The position numbers were made by a program, and so were the translations under genes. 39,118 nucleotides of DNA from Escherichia phage KKE5P, in the sequence record PQ356293.1; one strand, written 5' to 3'. The number at the start of each line of letters is the position of its first letter. Position 1 is the first letter of the stretch. Below are positions 16,995 to 25,900 of this stretch, one piece after another. Below the pieces are notes generated by a model. It did not search any database and was not told the origin of the DNA. It worked only from the letters and a program-made list of their open reading frames with translations.

Positions 16995-17035
16995 CGTGAT
17001 GAATAGTAAACGGTAGGACTCTTTAAGTCAATACT
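16995..17035 (-). promoter_or_regulatory. Host sigma70 early promoter A1
   Basis: Phage-sense TTGACT (-35) and TACTAT (-10) with 17-bp spacer. Confidence 0.6.
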
Positions 17036-17085
17036 CTTTTTAAAATTCTTTAATTTCTCCCCCTTTAAGGCCTCTTTAAGTAGTC

Positions 17086-17108
17086 TCTCCCTATAGTGAG
17101 TTGTATTA
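17086..17108 (-). promoter_or_regulatory. T7-RNAP promoter phiOL
   Basis: Promoter-sense taatacaactcactatagggaga. Confidence 0.75.
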
Positions 17109-17109
17109 A

Positions 17110-17330
17110 AGACAATGATTAAAGGTGTCTCTTTATAGGTAACAACAAGGCGTCTTTAGGTATGGTCTTTAGGTATGGTCTTTAGGTGGAGTCTTTAGAA
17201 GATACTTTAAGATGGGGATTGACTGAATGGGTCTTTAGGTGTAGTCTTTAGGATGTAGGCGGTAGGAATGACTTTAGGAGGTGACTTTAGGAGGATACTT
17301 TAGGAGACTGAACAGATAGGGACACAGAGA
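17110..17330. repeat. Array of about 10 CCTAAAG (plus-strand CTTTAGG) heptamers at about 11-12 bp spacing, left-end side
   Basis: Repeated ctttagg in gtctttaggtatggtctttaggtatggtctttaggtggagtctttag... Confidence 0.7.
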
Positions 17331-17487
17331 GACACTCAAGGTAACACCCAAAGGGACAACTCAAGGTAAACCATAAGGCCATCCCAACCCTTAGGGAACC
17401 CTCAAGGTCAACTGAAAGTTGACTCAAGGTGATTGGCTGGGCTTAAGGGACCCCTATGGGGGAACTTTGGGTTCTTAAACTGTGAGA
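17328..17487. repeat. Probable direct terminal repeat (single collapsed copy); physical left end near 17487
   Basis: RC of 17480..17487 is TCTCACAG, the T7 left-terminal sequence; downstream about 85 percent similar to T7 bases 1-200 from memory; length by analogy. Confidence 0.5.
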
Positions 17488-17489
17488 TA

Positions 17490-17660
17490 GTCACTCAGAT
17501 TTTTATGGTATATTTTAAAGGGCCCTCTAGGAACTCCTCAGGCCCTCTCTAGGACCCTCTTTAGGTGACACTGATAGGATGGCCTATCTTTAGGTATAGA
17601 CCTTACGGATAGACCATTAGAGGCTCTTTATGGGTATACTTTAGGACTTGACTCTATAGG
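17490..17660. repeat. Heptamer-like repeats (ctttagg / ctctagg) on the right-end side of the terminal repeat
   Basis: ccctctaggaactcctcaggccctctctaggaccctctttaggtgacac... Confidence 0.55.
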
Positions 17661-17727
17661 GATGAAGTGGTGTGATGCAATCATACCGCTGAATCCCTCG
17701 GTGAGCCATCAGTCGGTCAGGAAGACC

Positions 17728-17877
17728 CTAATCACTACAAGTGAGTATAGAGCAAACGGTAGACTCCAGTGAACTGAGGTCTCCAGTAAGAGATGCGTAC
17801 CCAAGGGCAGCACAAAGTACCACAAGAAAGCGGTAGGTGACTCTATGCCGCAGTAGGTTCAACAATAAGCGGAACAT
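17728..17877 (-). CDS. 19.5: gp19.5, 49 aa
   Basis: Hand translation MFRLLLNLLRHRVTYRFLVVLCAALGYASLTGDLSSLESTVCSILTCSD. Confidence 0.6.
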   Translation of the reverse strand: MFRLLLNLLRHRVTYRFLVVLCAALGYASLTGDLSSLESTVCSILTCSD

Positions 17878-18031
17878 GAGTCTCCTCCCTTTATGTTGGA
17901 CTTTAAGTTAAGGTGATATTAATACAATATAATCACCATTCTTAGAGGACACTTTAGGTACACCACTATGCATACTTTATGCACTCTATAAGTATTCATT
18001 CAGTATCTATATAGTAACCTTTCGTCCCTCC

Positions 18032-18054
18032 TCTCCCTATAGTGAGTCGTATTA
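18032..18054 (-). promoter_or_regulatory. T7-RNAP promoter phiOR
   Basis: Promoter-sense taatacgactcactatagggaga (exact consensus). Confidence 0.85.
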
Positions 18055-18135: not shown

Positions 18136-19896
18136 TCACCACTCAATGAAAGACGTACCGTAGCCCTCATCGTCCTCAGAGTACACATCAACTCCTCCTA
18201 CAGACATCTCAATGATATGCGTAGCGGCAACCGTAGGACGCATCATGTGTTCCTCAAGGAAGTCAGCAAGCACTTCACCTTCGACCTTAACGGAATCCAA
18301 CTGCATGGACTCACGGAGATACTCAATGCCTAACGCAAGGGCATCCAATCGGTCATCATGTGCCAGAGCGCCTTTCTCACGAGTGATACGGGTCATCTGG
18401 TAGAACAGTGAGTACTTAACGTCATGCTTACCGTCTACGTCACGAGCGGACTGATAGTCTGCCCTAATGACCTCATCACGAATGACAAGGCGGTGAGTCT
18501 GCATGACTGGCTCAAGGGTATCACAAATACGCATCTCCTTCATACCACGAGCACGAATCTCTTCCATCGCACAGTTGTGGTGTTTAAGGAGGATAGGACT
18601 GAATACCTTACCAAACATACCATCACCGAAGTTACTCTCGTAGACAACCGTCTGGACTCCCCATTGCTTAGCTTTCTTGGCGAGCGACTCAAGGGTCTTA
18701 TCGGAGTAACCATCACGGAAACCTCCAGCTTCCATTAGGTAGATGTAACCGTTGAGGGTGTACAGCACAGCGTAACCTGTTTCATCCTTACCACGACCAC
18801 TTGGGTCAATGACCAGAATCTTCTGTTGATACTGACCAGAGTTGTTGGAGCAGTCGTGATAGGTATGCAGGTCATCACCCTTAAGGCCCACGTTAGGAAG
18901 GTCCTCAATGATGTTCTGACGGTTCGGAAGCCACTGGTAATGCATTGGTGCCTTCTCTAAGTCTAAGGCCGCTACTATAGCGTCACGGAGCCTCAGAGGG
19001 TACTTCTCGGCATCACTCAGGTTCGGGTTAAGCATGAACTGTAGCGTAAAGCCAGCCTTACCGTATTCCAATTCACGCTCACGTAGGTCATCACGGTCGA
19101 ATCGCACAGGGTCTGTTGGAGTACCAGCCAGAGCCTCAGGATTCTCCTCGTACTCCGCACGGAGCATTGGTGCCAGACGCTGAGAGTAGTAGAGGTTCTC
19201 TTCGCGTGTCCTTGGGTATAGAGCAGGCCAGATGATAGTGGTGTACCCACGGTTATCTTCAAGTTCCTTATAGAGAGTCATCTCAGTCTGAGGTGTTCCA
19301 AGGTAGATAACACGAGAAGTTGGCAATGGTTTAAGTAACGCAGCGAACTCCTGAACGAGAGTCCATAGCTTCTCACGGGCACCCATAGTAGCACTGTTAG
19401 ACGGAATCTCAACGTCATCAGCGATGATAATGTCAGCACGGCTACCAGTTAACTGACCAGTGATACCTACCGATTTCACACTAGGAGAGTGGTCAGGCTT
19501 AGCTGGGCCAACGTCAAAGCTGATTACAGAGTCACGCTGTCCGGGTCTCGGCTTCAACTCACTGAGAAACGGTAGAAGGTCAATGATGTTCTTGATGAAG
19601 ATGGAGTTAGCGTCTGCACGTTCCTTAGAAGCTGATACGATAAGTATCTTCAACTGAGGGTCTCTCCATAAGGACCACACAACGAACGCACAAGTGATGA
19701 ACGACTTACCGATACCACGGAAAGCCTGTAGGATGAACTTCTTGTTGTCTCCATTCGCCAGACATCGGGCCATGTCAATTTGACACTTAGTCGGCGGCGG
19801 GAGAGCAAGAGCCTTCCACAATACGAACAGGAACGCCACGAAGTCGCCCTTTAGTTGCGCCACAACGAGCGCATTACGATTGGCCTGAGTAGACAC
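18136..19896 (-). CDS. 19: Terminase large subunit gp19, 586 aa (apparent GTG start)
   Basis: (M)[65 protein letters not shown]...; first codon at 19894..19896 is GTG after AAGGAGGT. Confidence 0.97.
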
Positions 19897-19905
19897 ATTA
19901 CCTCC

Positions 19906-20349
19906 TTACTTGATTTCCTGCTTGCGTTGTAGTTCACGAATAGTATCCTGTAACGCACGAATCCACGCGTCACCCTTCTGTGTCACTGCGATAATACGTT
20001 TAGCATCTCGGTCGTCAAGTTCGGCTCGACCATCAGGCTCGAATCCACACTGACCATCGGAGGTTCCGGTAGTCTTGATTCTGACGCGCAACCGCTTATT
20101 GTCGCTACGCAAATCAGAAATAATCCTATCAGTGCTCCCTTCCAGCGCGGCAAGGTCTTCTTGATACTTAGCCGATATTTCATTGATTGCTCTTTGAGTG
20201 CTCGCTGTAGCCTCAACTCTCTTAACGTACTCATTCTGTACCTCCTGTTTCCACTTGGCGTCCATTGAGTCTGACCCTAGATGCCATCCTAATCCGAATA
20301 GCATCCCAGCGAGAACCCAAGGGACTAGCTTACGTAAAAATTGCAGCAT
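19906..20349 (-). CDS. 18.5: gp18.5 inner-membrane spanin (Rz-like), 147 aa
   Basis: MLQFLRKLVPWVLAGMLFGLGWHLGSDSMDAKWKQEV... with N-terminal TM segment. Confidence 0.9.
   Translation of the reverse strand: MLQFLRKLVPWVLAGMLFGLGWHLGSDSMDAKWKQEVQNEYVKRVEATASTQRAINEISAKYQEDLAALEGSTDRIISDLRSDNKRLRVRIKTTGTSDGQCGFEPDGRAELDDRDAKRIIAVTQKGDAWIRALQDTIRELQRKQEIK
19983..20234 (-). CDS. 18.7: gp18.7 outer-membrane lipoprotein spanin (Rz1-like), embedded in 18.5 in another frame
   Basis: Lipobox-like TISGC and proline-rich tail; embedded +1 frame arrangement. Confidence 0.75.
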   Translation of the reverse strand: MSTLRELRLQRALKEQSMKYRLSIKKTLPRWKGALIGLFLICVATISGCASESRLPEPPMVSVDSSLMVEPNLTTEMLNVLSQ

Positions 20350-20404
20350 AATGCCTCCCGTTAACTTTCAGATTTCACGTAGGAGCATCTCGTGTAGACA
20401 ATGA

Positions 20405-20452
20405 CATCCATAAAGACCACTATAGGTAGTGGCCTTGAGTATATCACTGTAA
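20405..20452 (-). promoter_or_regulatory. RNase III processing hairpin (R18.5-like)
   Basis: ccataaagaccactataggtagtggccttgagtatatcactg. Confidence 0.55.
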
Positions 20453-20713
20453 AGTATAAACATCGTCATCAGTCAGACCATTCTCGCCGACTTTCTCTTT
20501 GTACTCTTCAAGAGCACCAGCAAGGCTGCCCAAGATGTTAACATCAGGCTGCAACTTACCAATCTGGAACTTGTGGCGGTCTAACAGTTTGTTGATGGCG
20601 TTGTAGAGTTGCGGGGTCCGACGCTCGTCGTTGGCTAAATCAGCAAGCATACGCTGAGCCATCGCAGTGTCCAACATCTCTAAGAACGCAATGAGGCTCT
20701 TATCTTTTTCCAT
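20444..20713 (-). CDS. 18: Terminase small subunit gp18, 89 aa
   Basis: MEKDKSLIAFLEMLDTAMAQRMLADLANDERRTPQLYNAINKLLDRHKFQ... Confidence 0.9.
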   Translation of the reverse strand: MEKDKSLIAFLEMLDTAMAQRMLADLANDERRTPQLYNAINKLLDRHKFQIGKLQPDVNILGSLAGALEEYKEKVGENGLTDDDVYTLQ

Positions 20714-20716
20714 ATA

Positions 20717-20920
20717 TCACTCCTTATTGGCTTTCTTCCAGTCAATAATCTTATCGACTACCTTGGCACCAATCTGAACCACTGTGTAGGCGATAGCTGC
20801 AACGTAGAACCACTCATTAAGACTCAGCCCGAAGAAAAGCCGAGCAGCGCCATCAGCCACACCCGTGCCAACAATAGGTGCAGCCTTGACTAACTCATTA
20901 TTAAAATCTAAAGACAGCAT
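20717..20920 (-). CDS. 17.5: Holin gp17.5, 67 aa
   Basis: MLSLDFNNELVKAAPIVGTGVADGAARLFFGLSLNEWFYVAAIAYTVVQIGAKVVDKIIDWKKANKE. Confidence 0.9.
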   Translation of the reverse strand: MLSLDFNNELVKAAPIVGTGVADGAARLFFGLSLNEWFYVAAIAYTVVQIGAKVVDKIIDWKKANKE

Positions 20921-20973
20921 GTATCGTCTCCTTTATTTAAAATATGGACATTCCGTTGTCCTGCTCGTGTTCC

Positions 20974-22851
20974 TTACGTTTGTGGGTAGTCACACACTAC
21001 GTCAATATAGTTGATTGCCTGTACTCCAGAACCTGTAGCCGCTACTAGTTTAACTTGATTCGCCGCAGGGAACTCTAAGGTGTACGACCAGTTAGCTAGA
21101 GTGATGTGCATTCGGTCAGCAGTGTTTGGCTGGAGGAACGGGCTACAACGGTATACCTGAGAGTTGGGGTTTTGGCTATCGGTGTGTGCGCCAATTACTA
21201 GCATCTTGTTGAGAATATCCTCAGAGCAAGTCACTGTTCTTCCAGTCGCAAGTTGTCCTTGAGACGTGCGGTCGCTAAACACTCGGCGAAGGAACTTCTG
21301 TCCAGACTTCTCGAGGTTCTCATTAGTAACCATACGTGTAAGTAGTTCGGTATAAACCTGCTCGACGCGAGAAGCCAACACAGCGGCATCCACTGAACCC
21401 GGATTGTTGACAACACCGTGAGTCCTGATAACCCAGACAATCACGATGCCATTCATACGGGCTTCATTAATGTCCTTCTTGTAGACGTCGTTCCACAGTG
21501 ACGCGTCGAAACCTAACTGAGCACCACCGGTATCGTTAGTTGCACCTTTGTTGGAGCGCCCAGCGTTGTAGAATGCACCAGAGGCACTGGAGGCCAGCTC
21601 ATTATCGGCAAGTGTAATCAGACCCTCAATGTTTGGTAGAGCTGACTTCTGAACGTCACCTACAGTAAACCCAGCGTCACCACGGAACACAGGAGCCTTA
21701 ATGGAACCCGCATAGACACCGTTTAGGTCTGGTACACGGAAAGTGGTCGTACCGTTACCTAAGGTATAGCAACCACGTTTACCGGGGTCAGCAAGCCATA
21801 CGTCGTCAGAGACAACCGGGAGGTGCCCTGCCAGTAACTCAGCGACTAGTGCAGGGAACTGGTTGCGGTTCAATAGTTGCCCGTCACCGTATACTGTACC
21901 CGGCTTAGCGTAAGTACGAGAGTTGTGAATCTCAAACTCACCAACCTGACGTACGGCCACGCCGTTAATCCGGTCAACCAGAGTGTTAAACTGAATTAGC
22001 TTATCGGATTCAGTCTTTGCACTACTTGCAGATGTCGCAGCGTTGCTCTCAGATACAGCGGCCTGTTGAGCAGACGTGTTGGCTGCATCGCGGTAACCCA
22101 GAGCATCATTGGCGTAATCACCAGCACGGTCAGCCTGTGCCTTAGCGTTCGCTACTTGTGCCTGAGAGTTACCCGCAGAGATTGCAGACGCATTAGCGCT
22201 TTCCTCAGAGGTCAACGCCCAATGCTTAGCGGAATACTGATTGGGGACCACGGGTGTACCTTTAGGGTTCTCAGCCCACTTCTTCGCCAACTGCTCGGAA
22301 GCCTTTGAGTTTGTCTCAGAGGTCTTAGCGTTATTCTCAGAAGTCTTCGCTTTGTTCGCACTATCGGCGGCACTACCAGACCAGCGATTCATCTGACCAA
22401 CCGTAACAGCGTCACCGGGGTCAATGCCATCCGCTACATTCACCACACGTCTACCACGCGCATCTAGATGACCATCGTTGTTTACACCTATAGTGTCAGA
22501 CGTTAAATCTCGCGCCTCTTCTGCCACATGCATAGTCTGAATCTGGGCCACGTTAAGGTCATACGCACGGAGGATAGAGCCATCTGTAAAGTCAACCAAT
22601 CGGTCGGTAGTGGATGTAACCCGCCGTACCTCGATGGTTTCATAGCTATCAGCCGGACCCCAAGCCTTAGTTAGGGATATGGTTGTTCGAGTAGCGAATC
22701 GGTAGTCTGCATTGATGGTAAGCACTTTACGGTCCTTACCAATAAGAGTTACCACTACGAACTTACGGGCCAGATACTCAAACGGGATATTAAAATCACG
22801 AGTTGAGCCATCTAACGGGTAAGTCAAAACGGTCTTAATTACGTTAGCCAT
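20974..22851 (-). CDS. 17: Tail fibre gp17, 625 aa (T7-like N-terminal domain, divergent shaft and distal domain)
   Basis: N-terminus MANVIKTVLTYPLDGSTRDFNIPFEYLARKFVVVTLIG... matches T7 gp17; beyond about residue 165 it differs from T7 as recalled. Confidence 0.9.
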   Translation of the reverse strand: MANVIKTVLTYPLDGSTRDFNIPFEYLARKFVVVTLIGKDRKVLTINADYRFATRTTISLTKAWGPADSYETIEVRRVTSTTDRLVDFTDGSILRAYDLNVAQIQTMHVAEEARDLTSDTIGVNNDGHLDARGRRVVNVADGIDPGDAVTVGQMNRWSGSAADSANKAKTSENNAKTSETNSKASEQLAKKWAENPKGTPVVPNQYSAKHWALTSEESANASAISAGNSQAQVANAKAQADRAGDYANDALGYRDAANTSAQQAAVSESNAATSASSAKTESDKLIQFNTLVDRINGVAVRQVGEFEIHNSRTYAKPGTVYGDGQLLNRNQFPALVAELLAGHLPVVSDDVWLADPGKRGCYTLGNGTTTFRVPDLNGVYAGSIKAPVFRGDAGFTVGDVQKSALPNIEGLITLADNELASSASGAFYNAGRSNKGATNDTGGAQLGFDASLWNDVYKKDINEARMNGIVIVWVIRTHGVVNNPGSVDAAVLASRVEQVYTELLTRMVTNENLEKSGQKFLRRVFSDRTSQGQLATGRTVTCSEDILNKMLVIGAHTDSQNPNSQVYRCSPFLQPNTADRMHITLANWSYTLEFPAANQVKLVAATGSGVQAINYIDVVCDYPQT

Positions 22852-22902
22852 TTTACCTCCTTAAGTAAATCTATGAGACTACAGGGAGAAGATTCTTTCG
22901 CC

Positions 22903-22925
22903 TCTCCCTATAGTGAGTCGTATTA
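22903..22925 (-). promoter_or_regulatory. T7-RNAP promoter phi17
   Basis: Promoter-sense taatacgactcactatagggaga overlapping gene 16 stop. Confidence 0.85.
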
Positions 22926-25900
22926 TTTCCGACGCTCCCTCAAGTTAACACCATTGGCCTCATAAATCTTAATCACAAGCTGTTGAGTTAGAGGGTCGTT
23001 AGGCACTAACTCTTTGGTCGAGTTCATTAAGCCAGTCATGAAGTCCTGCTCGGTTGCCTTGTTAGGTGAATTAACCACACCAGCAGCATTCATTAGGGTA
23101 GCCCCCACGTTAGCCACAAAGCCAGCAGAAGGCATCTGCTCCAGAAGGTTCGAACCCATAGCTCCCATTACCTCTCTTGAGGTGTACGGTTTGTTTGGGT
23201 CACGCTCCTTCATGGTGTCCTTAGGTAGAATCGTGGAGCGAACCATCTTGGAGGACTCGACCCCTAAGACACCGCCAATGAGGTCAGCCATAGCCAAAGG
23301 GGCACCTAATTGAGAACTACGAGACAACGAAGCGTGAGCAATCATGGTTGGGTCCAGTGCGCGCTCCAAGTATTCTTTACGTTGCTCCTTAGGCATCCCA
23401 TACGCTTTGACGTGTGCAGCCATAGCGTAGTAACCACCAGCGAGACCCATAGAGATGATACCAGTCAGCGCAGCGTCAATCGCTCGGTTGTTCTTGTAAC
23501 CATCATAGAAGGTTCGAATGAACTTAGAGTTAAGGGATTTAATGGTGAAAGACTTAAACTGCATCACCATCTTACCCAATGCCCCGAACGCATGGGAATC
23601 CTGTAAGGACACCTTATGCGGACGCAGCATTGCCTCATCAGCTACCTTGTCAGCCAGTCGCCATAAGTCCATAGCGCGAGGGTCCATAGAGAACGCTTGC
23701 TTATCCTTAACGGTAAACTTCCCGTCCTCGCCACGGACCATGTGTTCCTTGATGAGAGACTTAATGCCAGCCATCTGCTCAGGTGTCACAGAGGCACCAC
23801 GAAGGAATCCTTCTTTCTCCCAGCGGGTAGTCTTACCTGTTAGGGTGGCACTAATAACGTCCCCAAGCATACCTTGACGCGCAGCATCCAGAAGGTAGTT
23901 AGTGGTTCCGTTCAGCATCTTAGTCCACGGAGAGCGAGCAGCCAGTTCCTGTGTGGAATACTTCAAGGTCCCTACGATGTTCGCCACAGCGGGTCCGGTA
24001 TCAGTCGCTTCCCTTAGGCGCTGCACAATGTCAGCACGTTTAGGGCGAATCAACTGGTCCACCTCCTTCCCGAACAGAGACGCATGGAGTTCCTTGAGTT
24101 CCTTAGCGGAAACTGGTTTAGACTTGTAGAGTGTATCTCGCAGAATTGGGATACCGTGACCGAGAGCACGCACGTTACCTGTGGCAAACATCCCAGCAAT
24201 CTCAGTAAGGTTCTGAGCACCCATATAGGCGTTCTTAGCGAAGAACCCTAGGTCATTGATGGCTCGCATAGAGGTTTCCCACACAGTGTCCTGATTGCGT
24301 CTAGCACGACCAGTAAGAATCTTAACGGTATCCATTAGAGCATGAACCTCGCCAGTCTTCTTACCGTCACCCTCAGCTTTCGCTTTGAGAGCCAAAATCT
24401 CATCCTTAAGTTCCTTAGTGGTTTTACCAGTGGACCCCATGATGGCGATGTCACCATTAACACGGCGGTCATACGCTGGCATGATGCGGAACATATCGAA
24501 GTCCCTTAGGTCGTTCACTGAGAATTGCTGTCCGTCTGGCATAGTGATGGATAAGTCCGAATCGAACAAGTTGCGTGCCTCAAGGAATGAGTTGTTCTCG
24601 ATGCCCACTAAGCCCTCAATGTTCTCTTCGATTATGGAACTGTTGGTGAACTGGTCGGAATGGGAGATACCATACGCCTTATCCATAGCGTACTTCTCTA
24701 CCATCTCTGGCGTTACTTCCTTCACCCCATGCAATTCCTTAAGCATCTCATCGACTCTCGCCTTGACCTCAGGTCTGGAGACGTAGCTGTTCATCCATGA
24801 GCGAGCAATACCTTCCTGTAAACCTTCGGCACCGTAGCGTTGAACCATCAGCGCCTTAGCGTGTCGGTCATACACATGAGGAACGTAAGTACCTTTGTGA
24901 CGACTCTCAGGGAAGATACTAACAGCCTTCGTATTGCCGAAGATTGCTGGGTTCTCCATGAGTTCACGCTTGGTGTCAAAGTGACGCTTAATGATGTTCA
25001 TAACTACTCTCTCAGGCGGAGTGAGTGCATTCTGCAACTCTGGACGCTCAATGGCTAATGCCGCTCTACGATAGATAGTGTATCGAGCCTCTTCGCGAGA
25101 CATCTTAGCACCACCAGTAGAGAACTCAGGGTCTTTCATCGCGTCAGACATTGCTTTGTACAAGTCATTGTAAGTACGCTGGTCAGTACCGTGAAGCCGC
25201 TCGTGAATGTCAGAAGCTGTTGCACCGAACTTACCTGAGGAACCAGACTGCATACCAGTAGGAGAGCGAACGAGGTCGATAGCCACTCTACGGATGTCAG
25301 CATCGTCAGACCCCAAGGTCTTCAAGCCAATCTCGGTGAACCCAGCAAGTTTGATTCCTCGCGCAGCCTTCTCAGGGTCAACCTCAGAGAACTCTTTTAG
25401 AGTCTTAGGGTTGATTGGGTTGCTTGCACTTATAACGGAGCCATCATGCAGCACCACAGCGCCTTTCTCGGTCGGTAAGTCCTCATAAGGAATACCGTTA
25501 TGCTCACCTTCAAACTTCATGTTCTCAGTGTTCATCCGAGAGAGGTCCGTAGAGTTTGCGTTGCGTGCTGTCTCACGGGCTTCCATTCGCATCATAGGAC
25601 CAATGAACTCATTGTCAAACTCAGCTTCTGGTTTGCTACGTTTCAGTCCAGCAGCTACAGCGTCACTGATTGCGGACATACCAGCACCAAACATAAAGCC
25701 GCCTAAAGCAGCACCTGAGTAGTCAGCGTCACCACCCGCTATGGAGGTACGGAGACCTTCGGATGCAACGTTAAGCGCAGCACTCTCGGCACCAACTACA
25801 AGAGCCTTATTGACTAACTTAAAGCCCTTACCAGTTACACCGACCATAGGAACATAACTGAGTGGGTCCACGCCAGCACCAATAACTCCAGCACTAAGTT

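What the first reader, a model, noticed from the sequence alone, without database searches (positions are those of the whole stretch)
20974..22356. Chimeric tail fibre: T7-like N-terminal anchor with a longer, divergent shaft and distal domain
The first about 165 residues of gp17 match T7 gp17 (tail-attachment domain). The remainder (KTSETN-type coiled-coil shaft, then ...YTLGNGTTTFRVPDLNGVYAGS... to ...VVCDYPQT) does not match the T7 distal domain as I recall it, and the protein is 625 aa against about 553 aa. This is the classic host-range module swap and implies a different receptor from T7.
Basis: partly seen in the sequence, partly recalled or inferred. Interest (0 to 1): 0.6.

Follow-up and report, generated by a model that had tools for sequence, protein, structure and literature searches.

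The report
Mosaic T7-like phage tail fibre
A T7-type phage carries a tail-fibre gene whose outer three quarters were exchanged by recombination with a different phage genus, an ordinary kind of host-range swap, though the imported part combines a T4-gp12-like domain with a tip predicted to fold like T7's own.

Summary
Window 20974-22851 (minus strand) is an intact 625-aa gene 17, with a perfect T7 phi17 promoter and ribosome-binding site upstream. Residues 1-~150 are the T7 anchor domain (PF03906, E 5e-65). Beyond about residue 314 there is no sequence similarity to T7, T3 or 04922B gp17.

DNA identity shows a clean cassette. T7-like similarity (91-96%) stops at window 22394 and resumes at 20919. 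In between, the window is 91-99% identical to Foetvirus phages P1723 and SRT7, whose backbones are otherwise too diverged for a high-identity match.

The fibre is not new. P1723 gp17 (GenBank MT465573) is 90% identical over its full length. Yersinia phages WX1 and WX2 have 60%-identical versions.

- Residues ~295-485 are a T4-Gp12-like collar/head domain, shared with T5-like LtfA/LtfB and Wifcevirus "T-shaped" fibres.
- An invariant 32-residue junction precedes at least three interchangeable tip types.

The receptor is unknown, and a receptor different from T7's is not shown. This is a new member of a known kind, of low to moderate interest.

The parts
22903..22925 (-). phi17 class III T7 RNA polymerase promoter, TAATACGACTCACTATAGGGAGA, overlapping the end of gene 16
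   Evidence: Exact 23/23 match; 10 such sites in the window, all on the minus strand, against 0 expected. Sequence read.
22855..22863 (-). Ribosome-binding site TAAGGAGGT, 4 nt upstream of the ATG
   Evidence: Read directly from the sequence.
20974..22851 (-). Gene 17, tail fibre protein, 625 aa plus stop codon
   Evidence: ORF. PF03906. Annotated homologues: P1723 90%, SRT7 76.5%, WX1 60%.
22402..22851 (-). N-terminal tail-attachment (anchor) domain, aa 1-150, T7 type
   Evidence: PF03906 E 5e-65. Near-identity to solved T7 gp17 N-terminal chains 7boz, 8e4g and 8dsp. 94% aa identity to WX1 against 78% to P1723 over aa 1-50. DNA is 95-96% T7-like for the first 100 nt, then 76-86%.
21970..22401 (-). 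Alanine/serine-rich coiled-coil shaft, aa ~151-294, P1723/SRT7 type; the 5' recombination boundary lies at its start (window ~22380-22400)
   Evidence: Weak YadA_stalk hit over aa 135-176. 88-94% aa identity to P1723/SRT7. blastn similarity to T7 ends at 22394. Fine alignment.
21397..21969 (-). Gp12-like collar plus head domain, aa ~295-485, containing the FRVPDLNG collar motif and an ~85-aa insertion that returns to the collar sheet
21343..21438 (-). Invariant junction VWVIRTHGVVNNPGSVDAAVLASRVEQVYTEL, aa 472-503: last collar strand plus the start of a long helix; the exchange point for tips
   Evidence: Almost invariant in 18 fibres whose flanks differ by 40-60%. It is followed by three different tip types. 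The window-SRT7 identity drop coincides with it.
20977..21294 (-). Distal tip, aa 520-625, predicted beta-sandwich preceded by helix aa 489-516; tip type A, ending IDVVCDYPQT
20920..22393 (-). Extent of the cassette with no T7-like DNA similarity; donor or partner lineage is Foetvirus P1723/SRT7
   Evidence: blastn to T7 covers 22394-25850 and 19185-20919 only. Sliding identity to P1723 is 0.86-0.99 inside the cassette and 0.53-0.72 outside. The 3' boundary lies ~15-30 nt after the stop codon.

Best explanation
This is the functional tail-fibre gene (gene 17) of a Teseptimavirus-type phage, and it is a natural recombinant.

The anchor domain (aa 1-~150) matches the phage's own T7-type tail proteins. 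Everything from about aa 155 to the stop codon belongs to a fibre type otherwise known from Foetvirus phages P1723 and SRT7.

Inferred mode of action. The gene is transcribed late from phi17. The protein trimerises without a separate or intramolecular chaperone. Six trimers dock by the N-terminal domain at the adaptor/nozzle (gp11/gp12) interface, as in T7. The distal part presents two candidate receptor-binding modules in one chain. The first is a T4-Gp12-like collar/head domain (aa ~295-485). After a conserved trimerising helix comes the second, a small beta-sandwich tip (aa 520-625) of the T7 gp17 tip fold. Reversible binding to a surface glycan, most likely LPS core and/or O-antigen, positions the tail for irreversible attachment.

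The conserved 32-residue junction lets tips be exchanged independently of the Gp12-like domain.

Shown: the gene anatomy, the recombination boundaries, the homologies and the predicted folds. Inferred: trimer geometry, which module binds, and the receptor.
For: - Intact ORF with a perfect phi17 promoter and RBS.
- Canonical 16-17-17.5-18-18.5-19 gene order with no assembly gene.
- T7-type anchor, and structural genes 94% identical to Teseptimavirus phages over 99% of 16 kb.
- Sharp identity switches at both ends of the cassette.
- 93.7% aa identity to P1723 over aa 166-625.
- Gp12-like domain: plus the description of homologous "Gp12-like RBD1" in Wifcevirus, Tequintavirus and Gordonclarkvirinae fibres (PMC11990801). 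The Bas99 match lies at aa 269-507 of its 777-aa fibre.
- Tip loops vary more than strands across 11 family members (entropy 1.30 against 0.96).
- Three tip types follow the invariant junction.
Against: - No experimental data exist for this fibre type. No paper on the P1723 or SRT7 receptor was found.
- The structures are monomer predictions. The Gp12-like head insertion is modelled at pLDDT below 50, so the trimer geometry and the dual-RBD idea are untested.
- Profile-profile comparison gives no sequence support for homology of the tip with T7's (hhalign probability 2%), so the shared fold could be convergent.
- The direction of transfer is not determined. WX1-type relatives on T7-like backbones carry the same architecture at 50-60% identity.
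Confidence: 0.85

Rival explanations
1. The distal part is ordinary T7 or T3 gp17 that has drifted by point substitutions. This is vertical divergence with no module exchange.
For: The tip's predicted fold is the T7 tip fold. The shaft keeps weak coiled-coil similarity to T7 up to aa 314.
Against: - No BLASTP or hhalign similarity beyond aa 314.
- The domain order differs, with a Gp12-like domain where T7 has its beta-shaft and pyramid.
- DNA identity to T7 falls from >90% to background within ~50 nt at both ends, while identity to P1723 rises to 91-99%.
Confidence: 0.02
2. The transfer went the other way. This fibre architecture is native to a sub-lineage of T7-like (Teseptimavirus-related) phages, and Foetvirus P1723/SRT7 acquired the cassette from a relative of the window phage.
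For: Yersinia phages WX1 and WX2, and several ~39-40 kb metagenomic T7-like contigs, carry the same architecture at 49-60% identity with T7-type anchors and flanks. The family is therefore old and diverse on T7-like backbones, while only SRT7 and P1723 represent it in Foetvirus.
Against: Among Teseptimavirus genomes in the phage collection, nearly all have T7-type or other distal parts, and only 5 records cover at least 80% of the distal query. The evidence does not polarise the event. The mosaic nature of the gene is unaffected either way.
Confidence: 0.3
3. The chimera is an assembly artefact that joins reads from two co-occurring phages.
For: The origin of the window is unknown. Exactly this protein is not on record in the 153-billion-gene index. 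The window is circularly permuted like an assembler output.
Against: - The reading frame is intact across both junctions.
- The cassette is 91-99% identical to P1723, not 100%, and within it nt 1300-1500 matches SRT7 better than P1723. It is therefore a distinct allele.
- The 5' junction lies at the natural domain boundary, and the 3' junction lies in the intergenic spacer.
- Independent phages (WX1, WX2, P0002-P0008) have the same T7-anchor-plus-cassette architecture.
Confidence: 0.03
4. The distal part is an enzymatic tailspike or depolymerase rather than a binding fibre.
For: Many Autographiviridae carry tailspikes on the same PF03906 anchor (PDB hits 8x8m, 9m4c and 9m4d).
Against: - No beta-helix, pectate-lyase, SGNH or other catalytic family in Pfam or PHROGs.
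- The distal globular parts are only ~190 and ~106 aa.
- The best folds are gp12-like and T7-tip-like binding domains.
Confidence: 0.03

Closest known systems
Escherichia phage P1723 gp17 (QKM75972.1, MT465573; genus Foetvirus) and SRT7 gp5 (AXC34569.1)
   Same: Same length (625 aa) and the same domain order. P1723 is 90% identical overall and 93.7% over aa 166-625. The cassette DNA is 91-99% identical. SRT7 is the same up to aa ~505.
   Different: The anchor domain is Foetvirus type in both (74-82% aa identity to the window over aa 1-150). The window's anchor is T7 type. SRT7 carries a different tip, type B, which is only a remote homologue (hhalign probability 98%, 25% identity). The genome backbones belong to different genera.
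T7 gp17 (553 aa; solved structures 4a0t/4a0u for residues 371-553 and 7boz/7ey7 for the N-terminus)
   Different: No sequence similarity after aa ~314. A Gp12-like collar/head domain sits in the middle of the protein, and no match to T7's pyramid domain was found by sequence. The window protein is 72 aa longer. Tip identity is only 15-18%.
"T-shaped" dual-RBD tail fibres of Wifcevirus (Bas99 Gp114), Tequintavirus (IrisVonRoten, DT57C LtfA/LtfB) and Gordonclarkvirinae (Humolli et al. 2025, PMC11990801)
   Same: The Gp12-like RBD1 is homologous (~40% identity, E 1e-29 to 1e-32). In both, the chain continues beyond RBD1 into a second distal module.
   Different: Their second module is a T5-like RBD2 with an autocleaving Peptidase_S74 chaperone. 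Here it is a T7-fold tip with no chaperone domain. The anchor is podoviral T7 type. The T-shape itself was not tested here.
T4 gp12 short tail fibre (1h6w/5lye, 1ocy)
   Different: Identity is 13%. No HxH metal-binding motif is visible in aa 386-470. In gp12 the chain ends after returning to the collar, whereas here it continues into a helix and tip.
Yersinia phages vB_YenP_WX1 and WX2 gp17
   Same: The same four-module architecture on a T7-like backbone, with a tip of the same type A ending IDVVCDYPQS.
   Different: Only 50.8% identical over the distal 460 aa. The shaft is shorter (602 aa in total) and the Gp12-like head has a different insertion. The recorded host is Yersinia enterocolitica.

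Membership tests
T7 gp17-type tail fibre/tailspike anchor (Pfam PF03906 Phage_T7_tail) | N-terminal ~150-aa domain matching PF03906 above the gathering score | tested here: met
   218.4 bits against a cut-off of 25.2, E 5e-65, aa 1-155. Near-identity to solved T7 gp17 N-terminal chains.
T7 gp17-type tail fibre | Gene located between gene 16 and gene 17.5 (holin), behind a class III promoter | tested here: met
   Gene 16 (1318 aa) lies upstream. The 67-aa holin, small terminase, Rz/Rz1 and large terminase lie downstream. phi17 is an exact match.
T7 gp17-type tail fibre | C-terminal tip domain: beta-sandwich following a short helix, as in 4a0t residues ~450-553 | tested here: met
T7 gp17-type tail fibre | Sequence homology to T7 or T3 gp17 across the shaft, pyramid and tip (aa ~270-553) | tested here: not met
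   BLASTP gives no alignment beyond aa 314 for T7, T3 or 04922B. blastn similarity ends at gene 17 nt 458.
Gp12-like receptor-binding domain (Pfam Collar PF07484; InterPro SSF88874) | Collar motif matching PF07484 at the gathering score | tested here: met
   26.6 bits against a cut-off of 24 for aa 295-489. 22.5 bits, below the cut-off, when the whole protein is scored. The match is marginal.
Gp12-like receptor-binding domain | Fold similarity to the T4 gp12 collar/head | tested here: inconclusive
Gp12-like receptor-binding domain | HxH metal-binding motif in the head (a T4 gp12 feature recalled from the literature, not checked here against a gp12 sequence) | tested here: not met
   No HxH in aa 386-470 of the translation.
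T-shaped dual-RBD tail fibres (PMC11990801) | RBD1 homologous to the Gp12-like RBD1 of Bas99, Bas32 and Bas87 | tested here: met
   tblastn to the Bas99 fibre at 39.4% identity, E 1e-29, mapping to aa 269-507 of the 777-aa protein.
T-shaped dual-RBD tail fibres (PMC11990801) | T5-like RBD2 followed by a C-terminal intramolecular chaperone (Peptidase_S74, PF13884) | tested here: not met
   No PF13884 in the window protein at E up to 10, whereas Bas99 has it at aa 669-721. The tip matches T7 gp17, not T5 pb1.
T-shaped dual-RBD tail fibres (PMC11990801) | T-shaped trimer geometry | not testable with these tools
   Only single-chain prediction was available.
Tailspike depolymerases on a T7-type anchor | Catalytic beta-helix or esterase domain | tested here: not met
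   No such family in Pfam or PHROGs. The fold matches are binding domains.

The most novel reading that the evidence does not exclude
This would be a second, independent design of a tail fibre with two receptor-binding modules in one polypeptide, here in a T7-like podovirus. A Gp12-like module is fused through an invariant 32-residue adaptor helix to a chaperone-free T7-fold tip. Each module would recognise a different glycan, for example O-antigen and LPS core. Tips of at least three types would be exchanged at the adaptor independently of the Gp12-like module.
Probability: 0.3. Interest if true: 0.55.

Novelty: new member of a known kind. Interest (0 to 1): 0.3.

Why it matters
Mosaic gp17 genes are the textbook route by which T7-like phages change host range, so the swap itself is expected.

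Three points have some practical value:
- The cassette is an inter-genus exchange (Teseptimavirus and Foetvirus) with mapped boundaries at the anchor/shaft border and just after the stop codon. These are the same places engineers cut when re-targeting T7.
- The invariant junction VWVIRTHGVVNNPGSVDAAVLASRVEQVYTEL marks a natural splice point at which three tip types are already found. It could be used for tip grafting.
- The fibre type (P1723, SRT7, WX1, WX2 and this phage) has no characterised receptor. It combines a Gp12-like module with a T7-fold tip, which makes it a compact, chaperone-free test case for whether two binding modules in one fibre broaden host range.

Tried and rejected
- The word-indexed search of 5.8 billion proteins with the tip alone (aa 500-625) found nothing. 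The exhaustive HMMER search then found only P1723 and one WX1-like cluster.
- Pfam and PHROGs gave no family for the tip.
- hhalign of the tip family against T7, T3 and 04922B tips gave probability 2%. The T7 relation therefore rests on predicted structure only.
- 8hqz (DT57C LtfA) looked like a solved template for the middle domain, but only its N-terminus is modelled in that entry (PMC10713586).
- An exact-sequence look-up of the window protein found no record. P0037 turned out to be P1723 itself.
- Literature searches for SRT7, Foetvirus, P1723 and WX1 found no receptor or host-range genetics.
- The vB_EcoP_S37A paper (PMC13611991) describes a different phage of 38,725 bp with a tailspike-like gp17.
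- The short plus-strand ORFs inside the region (80 aa or less) have no support and were disregarded.
- GC content gives no signal for the cassette.

Full report
**What is there**

The window is a complete, circularly permuted T7-like genome read in reverse. All long ORFs are on the minus strand, as are ten T7-consensus promoters against zero expected by chance. The ORF at 20974-22851 (minus strand) encodes 625 aa. It lies between gene 16 (1318 aa) and the 67-aa holin, small terminase, Rz/Rz1 and large terminase, which is the canonical gene 17 position. A perfect phi17 promoter lies at 22903-22925. A TAAGGAGGT ribosome-binding site lies 4 nt before the ATG. The range 20974-22356 corresponds to residues 166-625 plus the stop codon.

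**Checking the observation**

Residues 1-155 match PF03906 (E 5e-65). They are almost identical to the solved T7 gp17 N-terminal chains. T7 gp17 is 553 aa and T3 gp17 is 558 aa.

BLASTP against T7, T3 and the nearest backbone relative 04922B aligns only residues 1-314 or fewer. After ~150 that alignment is just alanine/serine-rich coiled coil. Nothing beyond 314 is significant.

**Is it a swap?**

The backbone is Teseptimavirus. The first 25 kb is 90.9% identical to phage 04922B. The structural genes 6-16 are ~94% identical over 99% of their length to many Teseptimavirus phages.

- Sliding-window DNA identity shows gene 16 and the first 100 nt of gene 17 at 93-96% to T7 and 04922B.
- Gene 17 nt 100-450 is at 76-86% to T7-like phages, so the anchor allele is itself somewhat divergent.
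- From about nt 470 to the stop codon, identity to T7 is at background, while identity to Foetvirus phages P1723 and SRT7 is 91-99%.
- T7/WX1-like identity returns in the spacer, 15-30 nt after the stop codon.
- blastn puts the edges of T7 similarity at window 22394 and 20919.
- Outside the cassette, P1723 is only 53-72% identical in the same alignments.
- Within the cassette, nt 1300-1500 matches SRT7 (94-98%) better than P1723 (83-92%). The last 380 nt matches P1723 (95-97%) and not SRT7 (32-53%).

The gene is therefore a multi-parent mosaic. The direction of the inter-genus transfer cannot be decided. Yersinia phages WX1 and WX2, and several 39-40 kb metagenomic T7-like contigs, carry the same architecture at 49-60% identity on T7-like backbones.

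**Anatomy of the distal part**

*(a) Shaft.* Residues ~151-294 form a coiled-coil shaft.

- The region passes the Pfam Collar threshold when scored alone (26.6 bits against 24).
- It matches DT57C LtfA residues 579-787 (E 2.6e-27).
- It is ~40% identical to the fibres of Wifcevirus, T5-like phages, PY54 and others.
- IMG/VR holds 64 loci, on contigs from ~5 to 118 kb, that share only this domain.
- The Bas99 match maps to aa 269-507 of its 777-aa fibre. This fibre has been described as a T-shaped fibre with a "Gp12-like RBD1" followed by a T5-like RBD2 and an intramolecular chaperone (PMC11990801).
- In the monomer model, an ~85-residue insertion leaves and returns to the collar sheet. It is modelled at pLDDT below 50. 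I take that to be what an interwoven trimeric head would look like in a monomer prediction, but this is inference.

*(c) Junction.* The 32-residue stretch VWVIRTHGVVNNPGSVDAAVLASRVEQVYTEL (aa 472-503) is almost invariant across 18 fibres whose flanks differ by 40-60%. Three tip types follow it:
- Type A: the window, P1723, WX1, and P0002-P0008, P0010 and P0011.
- Type B: SRT7, a remote homologue of type A (hhalign probability 98%).
- Type C: P0001, P0009, P0012 and P0013, unrelated to type A.

*(d) Tip.* Helix aa 489-516 and a beta-sandwich at aa 520-625 form the tip.
- It has no Pfam or PHROG family.
- It has only two clusters, P1723 and WX1-like, among 1.84 billion representatives.
- It is nevertheless predicted confidently, at pLDDT 84.6.
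- Profile-profile comparison sees no sequence relation (probability 2%).
- Across the eleven type-A tips, loops are more variable than strands (entropy 1.30 against 0.96). This fits loop-mediated binding as in T7, but only weakly.

**How it most likely works**

Shown: the gene is intact and carries late-expression signals. The anchor matches the phage's own tail genes. No assembly or chaperone gene or domain is present.

Inferred from established knowledge of T7 gp17 and the solved T7 tail structures: six homotrimers dock through the N-terminal domain at the gp11/gp12 interface, and the distal modules bind a surface glycan reversibly. Two candidate binding modules are present, the Gp12-like head and the T7-fold tip.

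The receptor is unknown. P1723 is recorded on E. coli K-12 MG1655. Studiervirinae infecting K-12 depend on the LPS core (PMC11990801). Gp12-like RBDs have been linked to the LPS core and to O-antigens. A close SRT7 relative infects Kluyvera, and WX1 infects Yersinia. A receptor class different from T7's is therefore possible but not demonstrated.

**Comparison and novelty**

Chimeric gp17 genes with a conserved anchor and exchanged distal parts are well known. Essentially this protein is already deposited: P1723 is 90% identical over its full length and 93.7% over the distal 460 aa, and is annotated only as a tail fibre.

The window adds a new combination, a T7-type anchor and backbone with a P1723-type cassette. 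It is a new member of a known kind.

The less ordinary aspect is the architecture of the fibre family: a Gp12-like module plus a T7-fold tip joined by an invariant adaptor. I found no description of it in the searchable literature. It fails the membership test for the published T-shaped fibres because it lacks the T5-like RBD2 and Peptidase_S74 chaperone, but it may work analogously.

**Verdict**

Interest is low to moderate at 0.3. There is a 0.3 chance that the family is a genuine second type of dual-RBD fibre, which would merit about 0.55.

Noticed in passing
window 1-39118: The window is a whole T7-like genome, reverse-oriented and circularly permuted. Gene 19 ends at 18136, and the early region follows at lower coordinates. 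There are ten T7-consensus promoters, all on the minus strand. It is ~91-94% identical to known Teseptimavirus genomes, so it is probably a new species under the 95% rule.
   Followed up: partly
window 22402-22750 (gene 17 nt ~100-450): The anchor-domain DNA is only 76-86% identical to any T7-like phage, while the flanking gene 16 and the first 100 nt of gene 17 are 93-96% identical. The protein stays ~94% identical to T7 and WX1. The anchor allele is therefore itself a divergent or mosaic segment under strong purifying selection.
   Followed up: partly
L001 2675-2917 (P1723 MT465573 34551-34793): P1723 has an 80-aa ORF with a PF03906 hit just upstream of its gene 17. It is a truncated duplicate of the gene 17 5' end (72% nt identity to window 22626-22915). 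It may be a scar of a past recombination at this locus.
   Followed up: no
L006 20825-21208 (04922B, OP331230): The nearest backbone relative, 04922B, has an extra 127-aa hypothetical ORF between gene 17 and the holin gene. It may be a fibre assembly protein for its different distal domain. The window has only a 53-nt spacer there.
   Followed up: no
H60 / P0003 (Yersinia phage vB_YenP_WX2, OP219460 25512-26816): The WX2 gp17 homologue (602 aa, PF03906) is labelled "type II holin" in GenBank and UniRef. This is an annotation error.
   Followed up: no
window 17001-18000: This is the lowest-GC kilobase of the window (42.5%) and has positive GC skew. It lies downstream of gene 19, between promoter-like sites at 18032-18054 and 17086-17108. 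It is presumably the genome-end, terminal-repeat or early-promoter region.
   Followed up: no
P0001, P0009, P0012, P0013 (metagenomic gp17 homologues): These fibres share the Gp12-like domain and the invariant junction but end in a third, shorter tip ("...TSTGIYNVTFTSPL...NGFYVVKRNSAG..."). That tip is unrelated to the window's and was not characterised.
   Followed up: partly
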